Shown piece by piece: positions 688-25,172 of a DNA stretch of 32,000 nt. Source of the stretch: Candidatus Saccharimonadota bacterium (GTDB lineage: Bacteria; Bacteroidota; Bacteroidia; Flavobacteriales; Blattabacteriaceae); assembly GCF_014251775.1 (NCBI RefSeq), contig NZ_CP059199.1, positions 360,001 to 392,000 on the forward strand. Direction: 5' to 3'. Below the pieces are notes generated by a model. The model was not told where the DNA came from, ran no database searches, and worked only from the letters and a program-made list of their open reading frames with translations. The position numbers and the translations under genes were made by a program. Position 1 is the first letter of the stretch. Each line of letters opens with the position of its first letter.

Positions 688-1263
688 TTAATTTTTTTTT
701 TTAAATGGAATTCCTAATAAAGATAAAAGACCTTTAGATTCCAAATATTTTGTTGTAGAAATTACAAATGTAATATTCATTCCCATATTTTTTCTAATTT
801 CATCTATATTTATTTCTGGAAAAATTATTTGTTCTTTAATTCCAATATTATAATTTCCACAATTATCAAATCCACTATTGGATAATCCATTAAAATCTCT
901 TACTCTAGGTAAATAAACTACAATAAGTCTTTCCAGGAATTCATACATTTTATCTCTTCTTAATGTTACTTTTACACCTATAGGGGTCCCTTTTCTTAAT
1001 TTAAATCCAGATTCGTCATGTTTAGAATAACAAATAATTGCTTTTTGTCCACTTATATTTGTTAATTCTTTTAAAGAAGAGTCTAATATTTTTTTATCAT
1101 TTAAATAAGTACTACCTATTCCCTGATGAATTACAATTTTTAATAATTTAGGAACTTCCATAATAGAATTATACCCAAATTTTTTCATTAATTTTTTAGT
1201 TACATTTTTTTTATAAAAATTATATAATTGAGGGGTGTAATCAGAAAAATTATTTAGATTCAT
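688..1263 (-). CDS. rplE: 50S ribosomal protein L5 (uL5)
   Basis: 191 aa with FGYNSIMEVPKLLKIVIHQGIG and GMNITFV motifs typical of L5. Position is between rplX and rpsN. Confidence 0.9.
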   Translation of the reverse strand: MNLNNFSDYTPQLYNFYKKNVTKKLMKKFGYNSIMEVPKLLKIVIHQGIGSTYLNDKKILDSSLKELTNISGQKAIICYSKHDESGFKLRKGTPIGVKVTLRRDKMYEFLERLIVVYLPRVRDFNGLSNSGFDNCGNYNIGIKEQIIFPEINIDEIRKNMGMNITFVISTTKYLESKGLLSLLGIPFKKKN

Positions 1264-1927
1264 TTTTATTAATCTTTTTTAGATTAGATAAATGTATATA
1301 ATATCTATTTTTTGATTCTTTATTAAAACTTTTTTTCAAATTATTATTAAAATTCTTTTTCAAATTTTTATTAAAATAATTTTTCAAATTATTATTAAAA
1401 TTTTTTTTCAAATTTTTATTAAGATAATTTTTTAAATTTTTATCAAAATAGTTTTTCAAATCTTTATCAAGATCATTTTTCAAATCTTTATCAAGATCAT
1501 TTTTTGAATCTTTATCAAGATCATTTTTCAAATCTTTATCAAGATCATTTTTTGAATCTTTATCAAGATCATTTTTTGAATCTTTATCAAGATCATTTTT
1601 TGAATCTTTATCAAGATCATTTTTCAAATCTTTATCAAGATCATTTTTTGAATCTTTATCAAGATCATTTTTTGAATCTTTATCAAGATCATTTTTTGAA
1701 TCTTTATCAGAATTATTTATATTTACATTTGTGATATCATTGTTTATATTGATATCACTGTTTACATTAGTGATATCACTAAACTTAGTGATATCACTAT
1801 TAATAATATCACTAAAAATAGCTTTATTTTTTTTTGTTAAAATTTTTAATACAATTCCTTTTTTCCCTTTGTGATTTCCAGATAATACAATTACTTTATC
1901 CCCTTTTTTTATCTTAAATTTTTTCAT
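1250..1927 (-). CDS. rplX: 50S ribosomal protein L24 (uL24) with a large internal low-complexity repeat expansion
   Basis: The N-terminal KOW region MKKFKIKKGDKVIVLSGNHKGKKGIVLKILTKKNKAIF and the C-terminal IHLSNL motif match L24, and the position between rplN and rplE is syntenic. The ORF is 225 aa, whereas bacterial L24 is usually about 100-105 aa. The middle is D/K/N/S-rich tandem repeats. Confidence 0.8.
   Translation of the reverse strand: MKKFKIKKGDKVIVLSGNHKGKKGIVLKILTKKNKAIFSDIINSDITKFSDITNVNSDININNDITNVNINNSDKDSKNDLDKDSKNDLDKDSKNDLDKDLKNDLDKDSKNDLDKDSKNDLDKDSKNDLDKDLKNDLDKDSKNDLDKDLKNDLDKDLKNYFDKNLKNYLNKNLKKNFNNNLKNYFNKNLKKNFNNNLKKSFNKESKNRYYIHLSNLKKINKNESK
1301..1459. repeat. Degenerate copies of the same 24-bp (8-aa) unit, partly organised as a 48-bp higher-order repeat
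   Basis: Encodes DKDLKNYF DKNLKNYL NKNLKKNF NNNLKNYF NKNLKKNF NNNLKKSF NKESKNRY. The segments at about 1336-1383 and 1384-1431 are near-duplicates. Confidence 0.8.
1460..1709. repeat. Near-perfect 24-bp tandem repeat, 10 full units plus a partial one, inside rplX
   Basis: Plus-strand units are atctttatcaagatcatttttcaa and atctttatcaagatcattttttga. They encode DKDLKNDL and DKDSKNDL on the minus strand. I read the units one by one, and they differ only at the caa/tga dinucleotide. Confidence 0.95.
1731..1813. repeat. Short in-frame repeat family built on the self-complementary core AGTGATATCACT
   Basis: GATATCA cores start at 1733, 1751, 1772 and 1790, with a degenerate AATATCA at 1805. Spacings are 18, 21, 18 and 15 bp. 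There is a perfect 16-bp palindrome ttagtgatatcactaa at 1767-1782. The region encodes SDIT/SDIN motifs. Confidence 0.8.
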
Positions 1928-1940
1928 ATTTTTTATTATA

Positions 1941-2315
1941 TTATAACACCTCTTGTGCTAAAGATATAATTTTCATATATTCTTTTTCTCTTAATTCTCT
2001 TGCTACAGGCCCAAATACTCTAGTTCCTGTCATTTCTCCTGAAGAATTAATTAATACACATGCATTATCATCAAAACTTATATAAGATCCATCTATCCTC
2101 TTAACTCTTTTTCGTGTTCTTATAACAACTGCTCTAGAAATTTGCCCCTTTTTTACAGCAATATTACTTCCAGAACTAGAATTTTTAATAGTGACAATTA
2201 TAGAATCACCTAATGTAGCATATCTTTTTTTTGATCCTCCTAATACTCTTATAATTAAAGCCTCTTTTGCCCCAGTATTATCCGAAACTTTACACATTGA
2301 CTCTTGTTGTAACAT
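1941..2315 (-). CDS. rplN: 50S ribosomal protein L14 (uL14)
   Basis: 124 aa, [19 protein letters not shown]...[20 protein letters not shown]. This is a classic L14. Confidence 0.92.
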
Positions 2316-2319
2316 ATCA

Positions 2320-2574
2320 TTAATATTTTTCTAATATTTTTAATAATCTCCAACATTTTCTTTTACTTAACGGACGGGTTTCCATAATACTTACTTTATC
2401 TCCATTTTTAGAAATATTTTTTTCATCATGAACTAAATATTTCTTCTTTTTTAGAATACCTTTTCCATAATATTTATGTTTAACTTTTTTTGTCTCACAT
2501 ACTACTATAGTTTTATTCATTTTATCACTTACAACAATTCCCTTTCTTTGTTTTCTAATTTTTCTCAACCTCAT
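2320..2574 (-). CDS. rpsQ: 30S ribosomal protein S17 (uS17)
   Basis: 84 aa with [19 protein letters not shown]...HDEKN...GDKV.I.ETRPLSK. It overlaps the rpmC 3' end by 20 bp. Confidence 0.9.
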
Positions 2575-2782
2575 TAGATTTTATTCTTTTATTTAATTCA
2601 GTTTTCAATTGAGCAATATATTTTCTAATATTACTAATTTTTGTAGTAATTTTTATTTTTTTTACAGAATGAGCAAATTTAATTTGTTGATATTTTTTTT
2701 TATTTTTTTTAATAAAATTTTCTAAATCATTAATAGATAATTTATTTAATCTTTTAAAACTAGATATTTTGAAATTTTTCAT
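2555..2782 (-). CDS. rpmC: 50S ribosomal protein L29 (uL29)
   Basis: 75 aa, helical and K-rich, with [22 protein letters not shown]. Position is between rplP and rpsQ. Confidence 0.8.
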
Positions 2783-10364: not shown

Positions 10365-11177
10365 TTAAATATTAATTTTTTTATTTTGAAATAAAATATC
10401 TTCATCTGAAGATATTCCTAATTCCTTATAAATATAATTAAAAGTAGATAGAAGACAAGGTCCCCCATCAACTATAGCTACATTATGTTCATAATGAGCA
10501 GAATATTTTTTATCTAAAGTTGTAACAGTCCATCCATCTTTATGAAAGACTACATCAGAAGTTCCAATATTTATCATTGGTTCTATTGATAAAACTAAAC
10601 CTTCTTTTAACTTAAATCCTTTACCTGGTTTTCCAAAATTAGGAACTTGTGGAGATTCATGTATTTTTTTTCCAATACCATGTCCTACTAAATCTTTTAC
10701 TACAGAATAATTATGTTTTTCAACATGGGATTGAATGGAATATCCAATATCTCCTATAGTATTTCCTAATTTACATTGAGATATTCCTATATAAATAGAC
10801 TTTTTTGAACATGATAAAAATTTTTTTAATTCATCAGAAACTGTTCCAACTTCAAAAGTATAAGCATGATCACCATAAAAATTATTCATATATACACCAC
10901 AATCTACAGATAATATATCTCCATCATTTAAAATAATTTTATTAGGTAATCCATGAACTACCTGATAATTAGGAGATACACATAATGTATACGGATAATC
11001 ATACAATCCTAAAAAAGCGGGTTTTCCACCGTTATCATAAATAAATTCTCTAGCTAATTTATCTAAATATAATGTATTAATCCCTGGTTTTATTTCTTTT
11101 GCTAACATCCCTAGGGTTTTAGATGCTAGAATTGCACTTTTTTTTATTAGAATTATTTCCTCAATAGTTTTTATCAA
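10365..11177 (-). CDS. map: Methionine aminopeptidase type I
   Basis: 270 aa. The metal-ligand context is preserved (DCGVY...GDHAYTF, VGHGIG, LSIEP, HYEHNV). Confidence 0.9.
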   Translation of the reverse strand: MIKTIEEIILIKKSAILASKTLGMLAKEIKPGINTLYLDKLAREFIYDNGGKPAFLGLYDYPYTLCVSPNYQVVHGLPNKIILNDGDILSVDCGVYMNNFYGDHAYTFEVGTVSDELKKFLSCSKKSIYIGISQCKLGNTIGDIGYSIQSHVEKHNYSVVKDLVGHGIGKKIHESPQVPNFGKPGKGFKLKEGLVLSIEPMINIGTSDVVFHKDGWTVTTLDKKYSAHYEHNVAIVDGGPCLLSTFNYIYKELGISSDEDILFQNKKINI

Positions 11178-21612: not shown

Positions 21613-23322
21613 CTATTTTATAGTTCTTATTCTTAAAAGAATTTTTTCTTCATTTAAAAGAAATTTTTTTATAATTATAAAAAATATAATATTAATTAAA
21701 TTAGATGTAAAATAGTACAAGGATAAAGCAGATGCATAACTATTAATAAATAATAACATAATAAAAGGCATTAAATATAACATAATATCAATATTAGAAA
21801 ATATTGAATCTTCATTATTATTATAAATTCCTTTTTCACTATTACTACTTATTTTGGTATAAACTAATAATGCAATAGAATATAGCAATGTTAATAAACT
21901 AACATGATTTCCATAAAAAGGAATAGAAAAAGGTAATTCTAAAATAGAATCATATGATGTCAAATCATCTACCCATAAGAATGATTCCCCTCTTAAATTA
22001 ATTAATGTAGGAAAAAATTTAAATAATGAATAAAAAATTGGAATTTGAAATAATGCAGATAAACAACCTGACATGGGGTTTATTCCAACTTTTTTGTATA
22101 ATTCCATAATAGCTTGTTGTTTTCTTATGACATCTTTATCTTTAAATTGATTATTTAATTTTTCTATATCTGGACGAATTAATTTCATAATTGCATTTAA
22201 CTTATATTGTTTATAAGTAATTGGATATAATAGTAATTTTACTACCATAGTCATTAAAATTACAATGATTCCATAACTAAAATTACTCTTTTCTAAAAAT
22301 TGAAAAATTGTTAAAAAAAAATATTTATTAATATATTTTAATATCCCCCATCCAAATGGAATAATATCTTCAAAATTATTTTCATATTTTTTTAAAATAT
22401 TAAAATTTAATGGACCAAAATAAAAATGAAAATAAAAATTAGATTCTTTATTTTTTTTTTTATTTAAAGGAGTACTTATATAAATTTTTTTTAAAATTTT
22501 TCCATCAAAATAATTTTTAGAATAAATAAATACATCTTTTAATATTTTATCTGAATAAATTATAGTGGAAAAAAACTGTTGTTTAGCGGCTATCCAATTT
22601 ATATTGGAAATATTCTTTTCTACTATATTTTTTTCAGATAAATTTTTAACAAAATTATTATCATCTTTATAAGAAGACAAATAATATAATTTGGTATAAG
22701 AATTTTCCCAATTTCTATCTTTTTCTACAGAAAATAAATATTGTTGAAAATCTAAACTTGATAAATTATATGGAATATTATTCATTTTAATAGAAAAATC
22801 TACGCTATAATATCTACCTTTTTTTATTTTATATACATAATATAAATTTCCTTTTTTTATATTAGGAAATATGGCTTTCATAACTAAAATAATATAATCA
22901 TCATTTTCTTTTCTAATAAAAGGTTTAAAAAATATTTTTTCTGTACTTAAAGTATTCTTACTATTTCTTGAATTAGAAAAAAATATTCTATGTAAAAAAC
23001 TATTTTTTTTTACTAAAAAAAGATTTTTTACATGAGAATTAGCTACTTTATCATAAGATTTATATTTTTTAAGAAATACCTTATCTATTATTCCACCAAT
23101 ATTTGAAATTCTTAATTTTAAAACATCATTTTCTAGATTAGAATATCTCTCTTTTATATTTCTTTTTCTAATTAAAAAATTAGCTTTCTGATTAAAAAAT
23201 TCATTTTCTTTTTTCTCTATAAAATTATTTTTATTCAAAAAAAATGTAAATACTATTAAAACAATAAGAATAAGAAAAAAACCTATTATAGAACTATAAT
23301 CTAAATTTCTATTGTTATTCAT
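21613..23322 (-). CDS. yidC: Membrane protein insertase YidC
   Basis: 569 aa with an N-terminal TM, a large periplasmic-type domain, and a C-terminal 60-kDa insertase core (PITYKQYKLNAIMKLIRPDIEKL...GINPMSGCL..L.QIPIF). Confidence 0.9.
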   Translation of the reverse strand: MNNNRNLDYSSIIGFFLILIVLIVFTFFLNKNNFIEKKENEFFNQKANFLIRKRNIKERYSNLENDVLKLRISNIGGIIDKVFLKKYKSYDKVANSHVKNLFLVKKNSFLHRIFFSNSRNSKNTLSTEKIFFKPFIRKENDDYIILVMKAIFPNIKKGNLYYVYKIKKGRYYSVDFSIKMNNIPYNLSSLDFQQYLFSVEKDRNWENSYTKLYYLSSYKDDNNFVKNLSEKNIVEKNISNINWIAAKQQFFSTIIYSDKILKDVFIYSKNYFDGKILKKIYISTPLNKKKNKESNFYFHFYFGPLNFNILKKYENNFEDIIPFGWGILKYINKYFFLTIFQFLEKSNFSYGIIVILMTMVVKLLLYPITYKQYKLNAIMKLIRPDIEKLNNQFKDKDVIRKQQAIMELYKKVGINPMSGCLSALFQIPIFYSLFKFFPTLINLRGESFLWVDDLTSYDSILELPFSIPFYGNHVSLLTLLYSIALLVYTKISSNSEKGIYNNNEDSIFSNIDIMLYLMPFIMLLFINSYASALSLYYFTSNLINIIFFIIIKKFLLNEEKILLRIRTIK

Positions 23323-25053: not shown

Positions 25054-25060
25054 CCAAGTT

Positions 25061-25164
25061 CGGGTAAGTTCTATACAATCTGCTCCTTAATTTAAATCCC
25101 TAGGATGGGAACATAGCAAGGACAAAATGTAGTAGTAGCGATGTGATATAGTAAAGCTTGCCCG
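25061..25164 (+). ncRNA. ffs: Signal recognition particle RNA (small bacterial 4.5S type); ends uncertain by about 5 nt
   Basis: This is the only GC-enriched non-coding island in the window. The centre reads CCU-AGG-AUG-GGAA-CAU-AGCA-AGG. That is a GGAA tetraloop on a 3-bp stem, flanked by the conserved AGG/AGCA symmetric-loop residues and a CCU/AGG stem, like E. coli 4.5S ...AGG UCC GGAA GGA AGCA.... The termini pair (5' CGGGUAAGUU + CUAUA with 3' UAUAG + AGCUUGCCCG), giving one long hairpin. Confidence 0.75.
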
Positions 25165-25172
25165 TTTTTTTT
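25151..25172 (+). terminator. Putative intrinsic terminator: 3' arm of the SRP RNA closing helix followed by a T8 tract
   Basis: GTAAAGCTTGCCCG pairs back to 25061-25070 and is followed immediately by TTTTTTTT (25165-25172). Confidence 0.35.

What the first reader, a model, noticed from the sequence alone, without database searches (positions are those of the whole stretch)
1301..1813. Ribosomal protein uL24 doubled in length by about 0.5 kb of in-frame tandem repeats
The rplX ORF is 225 aa, whereas bacterial uL24 is normally about 100-105 aa. The N-terminal KOW region (residues 1-38) and the C-terminal IHLSNL motif are recognisable. The roughly 25 residues that normally link them (the EGVN..KH.KP....GGI hairpin region) are replaced by about 165 aa of D/K/N/S-rich repeats from three repeat families. 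The usual C-terminal tail is also shortened.

Every repeat period is a multiple of 3 (24 and 48 bp; spacings of 15, 18 and 21 bp). The frame also stays open through the degenerate copies, in DNA where stop codons are otherwise very frequent. That argues the gene is still translated rather than being a pseudogene.

uL24 sits at the polypeptide exit port with uL23 and uL29. A large charged, disordered insertion there could affect docking of SRP, YidC or chaperones. That part is speculation. Tandem-repeat expansion inside an essential ribosomal protein in a minimal, otherwise streamlined genome is unexpected.
Basis: partly seen in the sequence, partly recalled or inferred. Interest (0 to 1): 0.8.

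Follow-up and report, generated by a model that had tools for sequence, protein, structure and literature searches.

The report
Repeat-swollen ribosomal protein uL24 gene
In one cockroach endosymbiont (Blattabacterium), about 170 amino acids of in-frame tandem repeats have replaced the finger of ribosomal protein uL24 that sits at the ribosome's protein exit. This triples the protein's length while its RNA-binding core stays conserved, and it is most likely tolerated DNA-slippage baggage rather than a new function.

Summary
The window comes from a Blattabacterium cuenoti strain with a 561.7-kb chromosome. Between rplN and rplE lies a 225-aa ORF (1250-1927, minus strand). It has a KOW core (aa 1-38), two in-frame tandem arrays (aa 39-72, units of 15-21 bp; aa 73-208, 17 units of 24 bp with no indels), and the strand IHLSNLKKI.

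- Blattabacterium uL24 is normally only 70-81 aa, because the genus lacks the C-terminal domain. This protein is therefore tripled, not doubled.
- The open frame through the degenerate copies is weak evidence on its own (P about 0.13-0.3 under a simple neutral simulation).
- Repeats in rplX are not a one-off in this genus. B. punctulatus strains carry 1-4 copies of a 33-bp unit, and strain CP059214 carries 9-bp arrays.

This strain is the only one I saw that has lost the conserved hairpin (GINxxKKHxKPxxxxPKGGI). That hairpin corresponds to E. coli uL24 residues 43-57, whose deletion is viable.

The core is as conserved as in normal homologues, and AlphaFold pairs the distant C-terminal strand with the N-terminal strands. 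My best reading is a still-functional uL24 carrying slippage-generated baggage at the tunnel exit. The pseudogene and copy-number misassembly readings remain open. No expression data exist.

The parts
1250..1927 (-). rplX (uL24) ORF, 225 aa, 26.2 kDa, pI 9.4
   Evidence: ORF listing. Lies between rplN and rplE, as in relatives. KOW E 1.3e-7. TIGR01079 scores 39 bits over residues 4-42 only. Mass and pI.
1814..1927 (-). KOW / SH3-like core, aa 1-38 (strands 1-4 of the barrel)
   Evidence: 51-69% identical to seven other Blattabacterium uL24 cores, which average 52% among themselves. AlphaFold with alignment gives pLDDT 87-90 and strands at 11-14, 23-30 and 35-40. Foldseek top hit is 7jil_U, Flavobacterium johnsoniae uL24 (39 columns, rmsd 2.3 A).
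1712..1813 (-). Repeat array A, aa 39-72: SDIIN / SDITKF / SDITNVN / SDININN / DITNVNINN. Units of 15-21 bp seeded on AGTGATATCA, with a 39-bp higher-order repeat.
   Evidence: TRF periods 18 and 39. The repeat finder families D1 and D2 with spacings 18, 15 and 39. Codon layout. Net charge -4. pLDDT below 50.
1472..1711 (-). Repeat array B, young part, aa 73-152: 10 near-identical 24-bp units encoding (S/L)DKD(S/L)KND. Only two variants occur (TCA or TTG at codon 5), in the order S S S L S S S L S L.
   Evidence: Acidic; units 1-11 together carry net charge -10. Two antisense frames are also open here, so the open frame is uninformative in this part.
1304..1471 (-). Repeat array B, old degenerate part, aa 153-208: 7 units in the same 24-bp register (LDKDLKNY, FDKNLKNY, LNKNLKKN, FNNNLKNY, FNKNLKKN, FNNNLKKS, FNKESKNR). 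Basic, 10% GC.
   Evidence: There are 0 stops in frame against 2-17 in each of the other five frames. Units differ from the perfect unit at 4-9 of 24 positions, with no indels. aa 161-208 carry net charge +12. Predicted helical.
1250..1303 (-). C-terminal segment, aa 209-225 plus stop: YY-IHLSNLKKI-NKNESK. It contains the strand that normally follows the hairpin and closes the barrel.
   Evidence: IHLSNLKKI is 9/9 identical to strain CP059211 (locus L082) and 7-8/9 to others. It aligns to the C-terminus of all Blattabacterium uL24. AlphaFold gives strands 208-212 and 216-218 with pLDDT 89 for residues 211-220.
688..1263 (-). rplE (uL5). Its ATG (1263-1261) lies 14 nt inside the 3' end of rplX.
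   Evidence: 100% identical to WP_185864851.1 of Blattabacterium cuenoti, on a 561,716-bp contig. Similar overlaps occur in L081, L085, L086 and L088.
1941..2315 (-). rplN (uL14), immediately upstream of rplX with a 13-nt spacer
   Evidence: 73-81% identical to other Blattabacterium uL14.

Best explanation
This is the single-copy orthologue of rplX in a genome-reduced Blattabacterium cuenoti strain.

**How it arose (inferred).** Replication slippage in extremely AT-rich DNA created and repeatedly expanded two in-frame tandem arrays inside the segment that encodes the beta-hairpin of uL24. The 24-bp array is old at its 3' end, where the units have diverged and are basic. It is young at its 5' end, where ten units are nearly identical and acidic. 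Expansion has therefore gone on for a long time and is probably still going on.

**What the product looks like (shown from sequence).** The conserved hairpin motif is gone. It corresponds to E. coli residues 43-57, the finger that partly blocks the tunnel exit port. A roughly 170-aa low-complexity loop now separates strands 1-4 of the KOW/SH3-like barrel from the strand that closes it.

**How it most likely works (inferred).** The two ends of the insert meet where the two arms of the hairpin used to meet. The barrel can therefore still form, bind 23S rRNA and serve in 50S assembly. The insert projects from the exit-port face into solvent. It is part disordered and part possibly helical.

**Why it persists (inferred).** The insert is most likely non-adaptive baggage. 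It is tolerated because the hairpin is dispensable, because selection is weak in a vertically transmitted endosymbiont, and because a stop or frameshift would also uncouple translation of the overlapping essential rplE.
For: **Identity and position.** Gene order and ORF. KOW hit. tblastn finds the two halves of a normal Blattabacterium uL24 at 1894-1805 and 1297-1271, and no second copy in the window.

**Hairpin loss.** Every other Blattabacterium uL24 examined and about 70 free-living Flavobacteriales keep GINxxKKHxKPxxxxPKGGI. The window protein has no G or P after residue 24.

**Core under constraint.** aa 1-38 are 51-69% identical to relatives, which average 52% among themselves. This is comparable to uL5 (61-73%) in the same genome pairs. 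IHLSNLKKI matches 9/9.

**Fold.** AlphaFold with an alignment gives pLDDT 87-90 for residues 11-40 and 89 for 211-220, with beta strands at both ends. Foldseek finds uL24 of F. johnsoniae first.

**Slippage origin.** All units are multiples of 3 bp with 0% indels and show a divergence gradient.

**Tolerance.** E. coli uL24 with residues 43-57 deleted is viable (PMC6298777). A solved ribosome with truncated uL23 and uL24 loops exists (7zq5).

**Recurrence in the genus.**
- A 33-bp unit is present in 1, 2, 3 or 4 copies among B. punctulatus strains (81/92/103/114 aa), all annotated as L24.
- CP059214 carries 9-bp arrays of 5 and 12 copies.
- CP059217 and CP059218 carry small 18-21-bp duplications.

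**Context.** Blattabacterium genomes under 600 kb have mostly lost the DNA polymerase III sliding clamp and evolve fast (PMC8382890).
Against: - No expression or proteomic data are available.
- The exact 225-aa product is not in the 15-billion-protein collection. The 129-aa product of CP059214 is absent too. Proteins of neighbouring genes in the same genomes are present. This suggests the public annotation treats these genes as pseudogenes or leaves them uncalled.
- The hairpin is conserved in all other strains, so its loss may well carry a cost.
- The open frame through the degenerate units is only weakly improbable under neutrality (P about 0.13-0.31).
- The array is longer than a short read and built from two unit variants, so its copy number may be misassembled. 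No independent assembly was found.
- Only 32 kb of the genome could be checked for a second rplX.
Confidence: 0.6

Rival explanations
1. The gene is a pseudogene or a gene in the process of being lost. uL24 function has gone or is going. The frame is open only because the expansion is recent, because in-frame slippage does not create stops, or because ribosomes must read through to reach the overlapping rplE start.
For: - No protein record exists for this ORF or for the repeat-bearing CP059214 homologue.
- The hairpin conserved everywhere else is missing.
- The neutral simulation does not exclude a stop-free frame by chance.
- rplE overlaps rplX by 14 nt.
- From my own knowledge, not checked here: E. 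coli mutants lacking L24 are viable but temperature-sensitive.
Against: - The core (aa 1-38) and the closing strand are as conserved as in intact homologues, despite about 30% divergence of neighbouring proteins. This would not be expected after long relaxation.
- The gene contains 27 A-runs of 5 or more bases and none has caused a frameshift.
- The degenerate part of the array shows the insert is old, yet the flanks did not decay.
- rplX was intact in all 8 other Blattabacterium loci fetched, and annotated L24 proteins exist for about 40 further Blattabacterium chromosomes.
Confidence: 0.2
2. The array is an assembly artefact, either wholly or in its copy number, produced by short-read assembly of a low-complexity tract.
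For: - Ten near-identical 24-bp units (240 bp) with only two variants are hard to resolve with short reads.
- No second assembly of this strain exists in the collections.
Against: - About 270 bp of the insert (array A and the seven degenerate units) is unique sequence that cannot arise from collapse or expansion.
- The hairpin codons are absent regardless of copy number.
- Any error in units of 24 bp keeps the frame.
- Comparable rplX arrays occur in independently assembled genomes and differ in copy number among B. punctulatus strains.
Confidence: 0.07
3. The insert is adaptive. A charged arm at the exit port, acidic in one half and basic or helical in the other, changes how nascent chains, SRP, YidC, methionine aminopeptidase or chaperones engage the ribosome, or it contacts a host factor.
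For: - The insert sits exactly where the uL24 finger shapes the exit port (PMC6298777).
- The insert has been kept in frame for a long time.
- The basic half has L/F every fourth residue and is predicted to be helical with pLDDT up to 88.
- Exit-port clients are encoded nearby: SRP RNA 25055-25167, yidC 21613-23322, map 10365-11177.
Against: - No other strain or organism has this architecture.
- The composition simply mirrors the AT-rich codon bias (K, N, D, L, F, I, S).
- Repeats elsewhere in rplX in the genus differ in sequence and position and vary in copy number, as expected of neutral slippage.
- Long single helices are a common AlphaFold output for low-complexity sequence.
Confidence: 0.07

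Closest known systems
E. coli uL24 delta-loop ribosomes (strain HDB144, residues 43-57 deleted; Peterson 2010 / Kudva 2018, PMC6298777; solved structure 7ZQ5 with truncated uL23 and uL24 loops)
   Same: The same structural element is removed: the beta-hairpin finger at the tunnel exit port. The barrel and the following strand are retained, and the cells are viable.
   Different: That is an engineered clean deletion of 15 residues. Here the natural loss comes with a roughly 170-aa repeat insert at the same place, in a protein that also lacks the C-terminal domain.
In-frame rplX repeat polymorphism in Blattabacterium punctulatus
   Same: Same gene, same genus and same region of the gene. The unit length is a multiple of 3 and the origin by slippage is evident. 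NCBI annotates the proteins as L24.
   Different: The unit duplicates the closing strand and lies after an intact hairpin. It has at most 4 copies (+33 aa) and no degenerate old copies.
Lineage-specific extensions of ribosomal proteins in genome-reduced Mycoplasma pneumoniae (Xue et al. 2022, PMC9534751)
   Same: A reduced-genome bacterium whose ribosomal proteins carry extra, mostly disordered sequence on the ribosome surface. This includes proteins near the exit port such as L22 and L29.
   Different: Those are N- or C-terminal extensions, not tandem repeats. They do not replace a conserved internal element, and uL24 is not mentioned in the main text of that paper (0 occurrences of 'L24').
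Organellar uL24 (mitochondrial and chloroplast uL24 of 159-234 aa, e.g. 6xyw_Au, 6z1p_Ay, 28jw_U)
   Same: Descendants of endosymbionts in which uL24 has grown to twice its bacterial size around the same KOW core.
   Different: The growth is by terminal extensions that are structured and integrated. The hairpin region still aligns (query residues 3-71 are matched).
Low-complexity Asn/Lys-rich insertions in conserved proteins of AT-rich genomes such as Plasmodium falciparum (from my own knowledge, not checked here)
   Same: An AT-biased genome, slippage-generated N/K/D-rich inserts placed in surface loops of otherwise conserved proteins, and an open frame.
   Different: That is a eukaryote with genome-wide inserts. 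Here it is the only large array in 32 kb of a bacterial endosymbiont genome.

Membership tests
Bacterial ribosomal protein uL24 (rplX) | N-terminal KOW motif | tested here: met
   PF00467 matches residues 8-37, E 1.3e-7, 31.5 bits against a cutoff of 22.3.
Bacterial ribosomal protein uL24 (rplX) | Position in the spc operon between rplN and rplE | tested here: met
   rplN 1941-2315, rplX 1250-1927 and rplE 688-1263 are all on the minus strand. The order is the same in eight other Blattabacterium loci.
Bacterial ribosomal protein uL24 (rplX) | Full-length match to the equivalog model TIGR01079 at its curated cutoff | tested here: not met
   39.1 bits against a cutoff of 53.7. Only residues 4-42 align to model positions 2-40 of 104, because the insert splits the match. 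There is also no PF17136 hit, whereas the precomputed Pfam hits list PF17136 for every Blattabacterium L24 protein in the table. I therefore call it the positional orthologue of rplX with a disrupted domain, not a canonical family member by model score.
Bacterial ribosomal protein uL24 (rplX) | Conserved beta-hairpin motif (G[IV]N..K[KR]H.KP....P[KQ]GGI) | tested here: not met
   Absent. There is no G, P or H between residues 25 and 211. The motif is present in all relatives.
Bacterial ribosomal protein uL24 (rplX) | Strand after the hairpin, IH[ILM]SN[LVI] | tested here: met
   IHLSNLKKI at residues 211-219 is 9/9 identical to CP059211. It is predicted as a beta strand with pLDDT 89.
Bacterial ribosomal protein uL24 (rplX) | C-terminal domain after the barrel (about 35 aa in free-living bacteria) | tested here: not met
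   Absent, but it is absent from the whole genus (70-81 aa against 101-108 aa in Flavobacteriales). This is a clade trait, not a peculiarity of this gene.
Bacterial ribosomal protein uL24 (rplX) | Incorporation into the 50S subunit next to 23S rRNA domain I at the exit port | not testable with these tools
   Needs proteomics or cryo-EM of symbiont ribosomes.
Phase-variable simple-sequence contingency locus | A repeat unit whose copy-number change shifts the reading frame and switches the gene on or off | tested here: not met
   All unit lengths are multiples of 3 (15, 18, 21, 24, 39, 48, 72 bp). Copy-number change alters length, not frame.
MSCRAMM Ser-Asp repeat adhesins (SdrC/SdrD/ClfA/ClfB) | Whole-protein score at the curated cutoff, with an A domain and an LPXTG anchor | tested here: not met
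   24-36 bits against cutoffs of 999-2500. The match is confined to the D/K/S-rich repeats and is compositional.

The most novel reading that the evidence does not exclude
The insert is not inert. The ribosomes of this strain would carry a roughly 20-kDa arm at the mouth of the exit tunnel in place of the uL24 finger. The arm has an acidic half and a basic, helix-prone half. It would change nascent-chain handling, for example by acting as a built-in holdase or electrostatic gate, or by altering SRP, YidC or MAP access. Its length would be tuned by ongoing copy-number change. That would make rplX a naturally hypervariable ribosomal protein gene that generates heritable ribosome heterogeneity in an endosymbiont.
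Probability: 0.07. Interest if true: 0.85.

Novelty: new variant of a known kind. Interest (0 to 1): 0.55.

Why it matters
- **A natural counterpart of an engineered mutant.** This is a natural, and more extreme, counterpart of the uL24 loop deletion used to study how exit-tunnel shape affects co-translational folding. An obligate symbiont appears to live without the finger and with a 20-kDa appendage in its place.
- **A hot spot in a core gene.** Together with the rplX repeat polymorphisms found in other Blattabacterium strains, it shows that a core ribosomal protein gene in a 'static' minimal genome can be a hot spot of in-frame expansion. This bears on how drift and loss of replication fidelity reshape essential machinery.
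- **Annotation.** Pipelines that drop such genes as pseudogenes would wrongly score rplX as lost.
- **A possible strain marker.** The array could also serve as a fast-evolving strain marker.
- **If it is a pseudogene.** It would then be a rare case of ongoing loss of an assembly-initiator ribosomal protein.

Tried and rejected
1. **Whole-protein homology search.** It returned nothing because low-complexity words swamped the candidate list. I replaced it with a search using the neighbouring uL5 and a profile of repeat-free uL24.
2. **Exact look-ups of the 225-aa product and of this strain's uL5 contig.** The window's genome is not in the contig index, so its own annotation could not be read.
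3. **Exhaustive phmmer against 1.84 billion representative proteins.** It gave 235 hits. Among the 150 best listed, nearly all are compositional matches of the D/K/N repeats to unrelated large proteins, and a handful are short L24-like proteins matching residues 1-72 at most. None shares the architecture. P0301 looked similar just after the KOW motif (…KAIVSDINN…), but it comes from a 1.2-kb TARA ocean scaffold and is unrelated.
4. **Alternative history.** HMMER aligns aa 39-72 colinearly with the hairpin and strand of Bacillus uL24. That would make array A a decayed hairpin and the terminal IHLSNLKKI a duplicated copy. I did not adopt this. The stretch adds only about 1-2 bits, and array A is built from internal duplications (14-nt exact and 39-bp repeats). 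The history does remain unresolved, and either way the hairpin motif is gone.
5. **Origin of the 24-bp unit.** I considered the two L-K-[NK] motifs that lie 8 codons apart on the distal hairpin arm of relatives (ELKNPKGK-ILKKES). This is only 4/8 residues of similarity, and KES in the last unit is displaced by 3 codons. It is suggestive, not demonstrable.
6. **Single-sequence AlphaFold.** It put IHLSNL into a long helix (pTM 0.23). I discounted this in favour of the alignment-based model. MAFFT first misaligned the C-terminus. Adding two window fragments as anchor rows fixed that.
7. **Two metagenome scans for the core/array junction and for a dimer of the perfect unit.** Both returned zero hits.
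8. **Literature.** I found no paper mentioning rplX or L24 repeats in Blattabacterium. The supplements of Kinjo 2021 are not held, so the host species of the 561,716-bp strain could not be identified.
Full report
**Source and setting.**
The window is very AT-rich (17-30% GC per kb). It carries the S10/spc ribosomal protein cluster on the minus strand. Its uL5 is 100% identical to WP_185864851.1 of Blattabacterium cuenoti, encoded on a 561,716-bp contig. The source is therefore one of the genome-reduced strains of the cockroach fat-body endosymbiont (Flavobacteriales). The other uL5 sequences closest to it are only 70-73% identical by global alignment, so no close sister genome is available. 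This strain's contig is not in the contig index.

**Check of the observation.**
- ORF 1250-1927 (minus strand) is 225 aa.
- Tandem Repeats Finder reports an array at 1307-1718: periods 24/48/72 bp, 16.7 copies of 24 bp, 90% matches, no indels, score up to 518.
- A second array lies at 1722-1798 with periods 18/39 bp. Nothing else in the 32 kb scores above 88.
- Read codon by codon, the protein has four parts:
  - aa 1-38: MKKFKIKKGDKVIVLSGNHKGKKGIVLKILTKKNKAIF.
  - aa 39-72: units built on SDI[IT]N, with 15-, 18- and 39-bp spacings.
  - aa 73-208: 17 units of exactly eight codons.
  - aa 209-225: YYIHLSNLKKINKNESK.
- The first ten 24-bp units are nearly identical (LDKDSKND or LDKDLKND). Units 11-17 are progressively diverged (…FNKNLKKN, FNNNLKKS, FNKESKNR). 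Units 11-12 are intermediates, so this is one array with an age gradient rather than two families.
- The insert is 170 aa and 19.9 kDa. Array A carries a net charge of -4, aa 73-160 carry -10, and aa 161-208 carry +12.

**Is it uL24?**
- Pfam KOW matches residues 8-37 (E 1.3e-7).
- TIGR01079 aligns residues 4-42 only and stays below its cutoff (39.1 against 53.7 bits).
- PDB searches hit uL24 chains through residues 2-41.
- The gene sits between rplN and rplE, exactly as in eight other Blattabacterium loci.
- A tblastn search with a normal Blattabacterium uL24 finds its two halves at 1894-1805 and 1297-1271 (9/9 identical). It finds no second copy in the window.

It is the positional orthologue of rplX. 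It fails the model-score criterion because the insert splits the domain.

**What is normal in this lineage.**
- Free-living Flavobacteriales uL24 proteins are mostly 100-110 aa.
- Blattabacterium uL24 proteins are 70-89 aa in about 45 strains. They end shortly after IH[ILM]SNLKK, so the genus as a whole lacks the C-terminal domain.
- The window protein is therefore three times the lineage norm, and the 'shortened tail' is ancestral.
- Every one of these homologues keeps G[IV]N..K[KR]H.KP....PKGGI..KE.P between the core and the IHxSN strand. The window protein has no G or P after residue 24 and no H before residue 212.
- In the anchored alignment the insert sits inside this hairpin.
- The hairpin corresponds to E. 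coli residues 43-57. [quoted passage not shown] Its deletion (strain HDB144) is viable (PMC6298777), and a ribosome structure with truncated uL23 and uL24 loops exists (7zq5).

**Functional or decaying?**
- In the near-perfect units two antisense frames are open as well.
- In the degenerate units the coding frame has no stops, against 2-17 in each of the other five frames.
- A simple simulation applied the observed number of substitutions to the consensus units. It leaves the frame stop-free in 13-31% of trials.

Better evidence comes from the flanks.
- aa 1-38 are 51-69% identical to seven other Blattabacterium uL24 cores. Those cores average 52% among themselves. uL5 is 61-73% and uL14 73-81% identical in the same genome pairs.
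- The closing strand is identical to that of CP059211.
- The degenerate units show that the array is old, so a dead gene should have lost these flanks.
- The gene contains 27 A-runs of five or more bases and none has shifted the frame.
- AlphaFold with an alignment predicts strands at 11-14, 23-30 and 35-40 (pLDDT 87-90) and at 208-212 and 216-218 (pLDDT 89 for residues 211-220). Residues 43-122 fall mostly below pLDDT 50, and a long helix spans 130-205 at pLDDT 56-88.
- Foldseek ranks F. johnsoniae uL24 first.
- The helix may be a low-complexity artefact. The basic units do place L or F at every fourth residue.

Against function:
- Neither this product nor the repeat-bearing product of CP059214 exists as a protein record, although their neighbours do. 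This hints that the public annotation treats them as pseudogenes.

**Recurrence in the genus (found here).**
- B. punctulatus strains encode uL24 of 81, 92, 103 and 114 aa. They differ only in having 1, 2, 3 or 4 copies of KKEAPIHISNL. This is a 33-bp unit with 98% matches, and all are annotated as L24.
- CP059214 has an intact hairpin followed by nine-bp arrays of 5.0 and 12.4 copies (protein: FEE x4, GTE x12), both 100% matches.
- CP059217 and CP059218 have small 18-21-bp duplications at the 3' end.
- No comparable array occurs in the neighbouring ribosomal protein genes of these loci, nor elsewhere in the window.

The 3' half of rplX is thus a recurrent site of in-frame slippage in Blattabacterium. 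The likely reason is that the region after the barrel became unconstrained once the C-terminal domain was lost. The window strain is the extreme case and the only one in which the hairpin itself was overwritten.

For context, Kinjo et al. report that Blattabacterium genomes under 600 kb have mostly lost the DNA polymerase III sliding clamp and evolve faster (PMC8382890). Whether this particular strain lacks it could not be checked.

**Mechanism proposed.**
- Shown: the anatomy, the loss of the hairpin, the conservation of the core, and the recurrence in the genus.
- Inferred: origin by slipped-strand mispairing; continued expansion at the 5' side of the array; a barrel that still closes because the insert's ends meet where the hairpin arms met; an insert that projects from the exit-port face; and tolerance because the finger is dispensable and selection is weak.
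- A further inferred constraint comes from rplE. Its start lies 14 nt inside rplX, so read-through may be needed for efficient uL5 synthesis. That would select against stops whatever the insert does.
- Any effect on SRP, YidC, methionine aminopeptidase or chaperones is untested. The partners are present in the window: SRP RNA at 25055-25167, yidC, map and dnaK.

**Comparison with what is known.**
Ribosomal protein extensions are known in Mycoplasma pneumoniae (11 proteins, terminal, mostly disordered; PMC9534751) and in organellar uL24 (159-234 aa). The hairpin deletion is known as an engineered E. coli mutant. No database protein combines a uL24 core with such an insert. I found no paper that mentions it. 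I therefore rate it a new variant of a known kind: a lineage-specific, slippage-driven expansion of a ribosomal protein. It is notable for being internal, very large, and located at the exit-port finger.

**Verdict.**
The feature is real.

| Reading | Confidence |
|---|---|
| Functional uL24 carrying tolerated repeat baggage | about 0.6 |
| Pseudogene or gene being lost | about 0.2 |
| Adaptive exit-port appendage | about 0.07 |
| Wholesale assembly artefact | about 0.07 |

A copy-number error is quite possible but does not change the conclusion.

Noticed in passing
L088 762-877 (CP029811.1, Blattabacterium punctulatus); proteins P0391, P0392, P0395/P0139, P0397: rplX carries a 33-bp in-frame tandem unit (KKEAPIHISNL). 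It is present in 1, 2, 3 or 4 copies in different B. punctulatus strains (uL24 of 81, 92, 103 and 114 aa). This is a copy-number polymorphism that duplicates the barrel-closing strand of an essential ribosomal protein.
   Followed up: yes
L081 2842-2994 (CP059214.1, 561,052-bp Blattabacterium cuenoti): rplX has an intact hairpin followed by two perfect 9-bp arrays (protein: FEE x4, GTE x12), giving a 129-aa product. This exact protein is absent from the protein collection, like the window's.
   Followed up: partly
L085 1467-1518 and L086 1477-1528 (CP059217.1, CP059218.1): Small 18-21-bp tandem duplications at the 3' end of rplX (…ISNLKKISNSKNEISN) extend uL24 to 82 and 90 aa.
   Followed up: partly
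All Blattabacterium uL24 (P0121-P0167, L082-L087): The whole genus lacks the C-terminal domain of uL24 (70-81 aa against 101-108 aa in free-living Flavobacteriales). The tails after IHxSNLKK are short and highly variable.
   Followed up: partly
Proteins P0047-P0120 (marine Flavobacteriales metagenome contigs): Many uL5 homologues are 220-301 aa instead of about 183. Some have Pfam hits to extensin-like repeats (PF02095) or PF12815. This suggests repeat-rich extensions on uL5 in free-living marine Flavobacteriales.
   Followed up: no
window 1250-1263: The rplE start codon lies 14 nt inside the end of rplX. Similar overlaps of 17-35 nt occur in the strains whose rplX is extended (L081, L085, L086, L088), whereas strains with a 72-73-aa uL24 have a gap of 0-12 nt. 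This suggests that tail extensions arise by read-through or expansion into the rplE start region.
   Followed up: partly
window 25055-25167 (+): The SRP RNA matches the 'Bacteroidales small SRP' model (RF04183, 64.9 bits). It lies between the CTP synthase gene and clpX. yidC (21613-23322) is close by, so the exit-port partners of uL24 are retained.
   Followed up: no
window 2555-2782 (-) and L081-L087: uL29 is by far the least conserved protein of the cluster (29-50% identity between strains, against 61-89% for its neighbours). One homologue has no Pfam hit on record (L084 459-677). uL29 is another exit-port protein.
   Followed up: no
L089 234-461 (TARA ocean scaffold, P0301): A 75-aa ORF has a good uL24 KOW core followed, right after …KAIV, by unrelated sequence (SDINNDLQLNVLDIV…) instead of the hairpin. 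The scaffold is only 1.2 kb, so it may be a frameshift or a chimera.
   Followed up: partly
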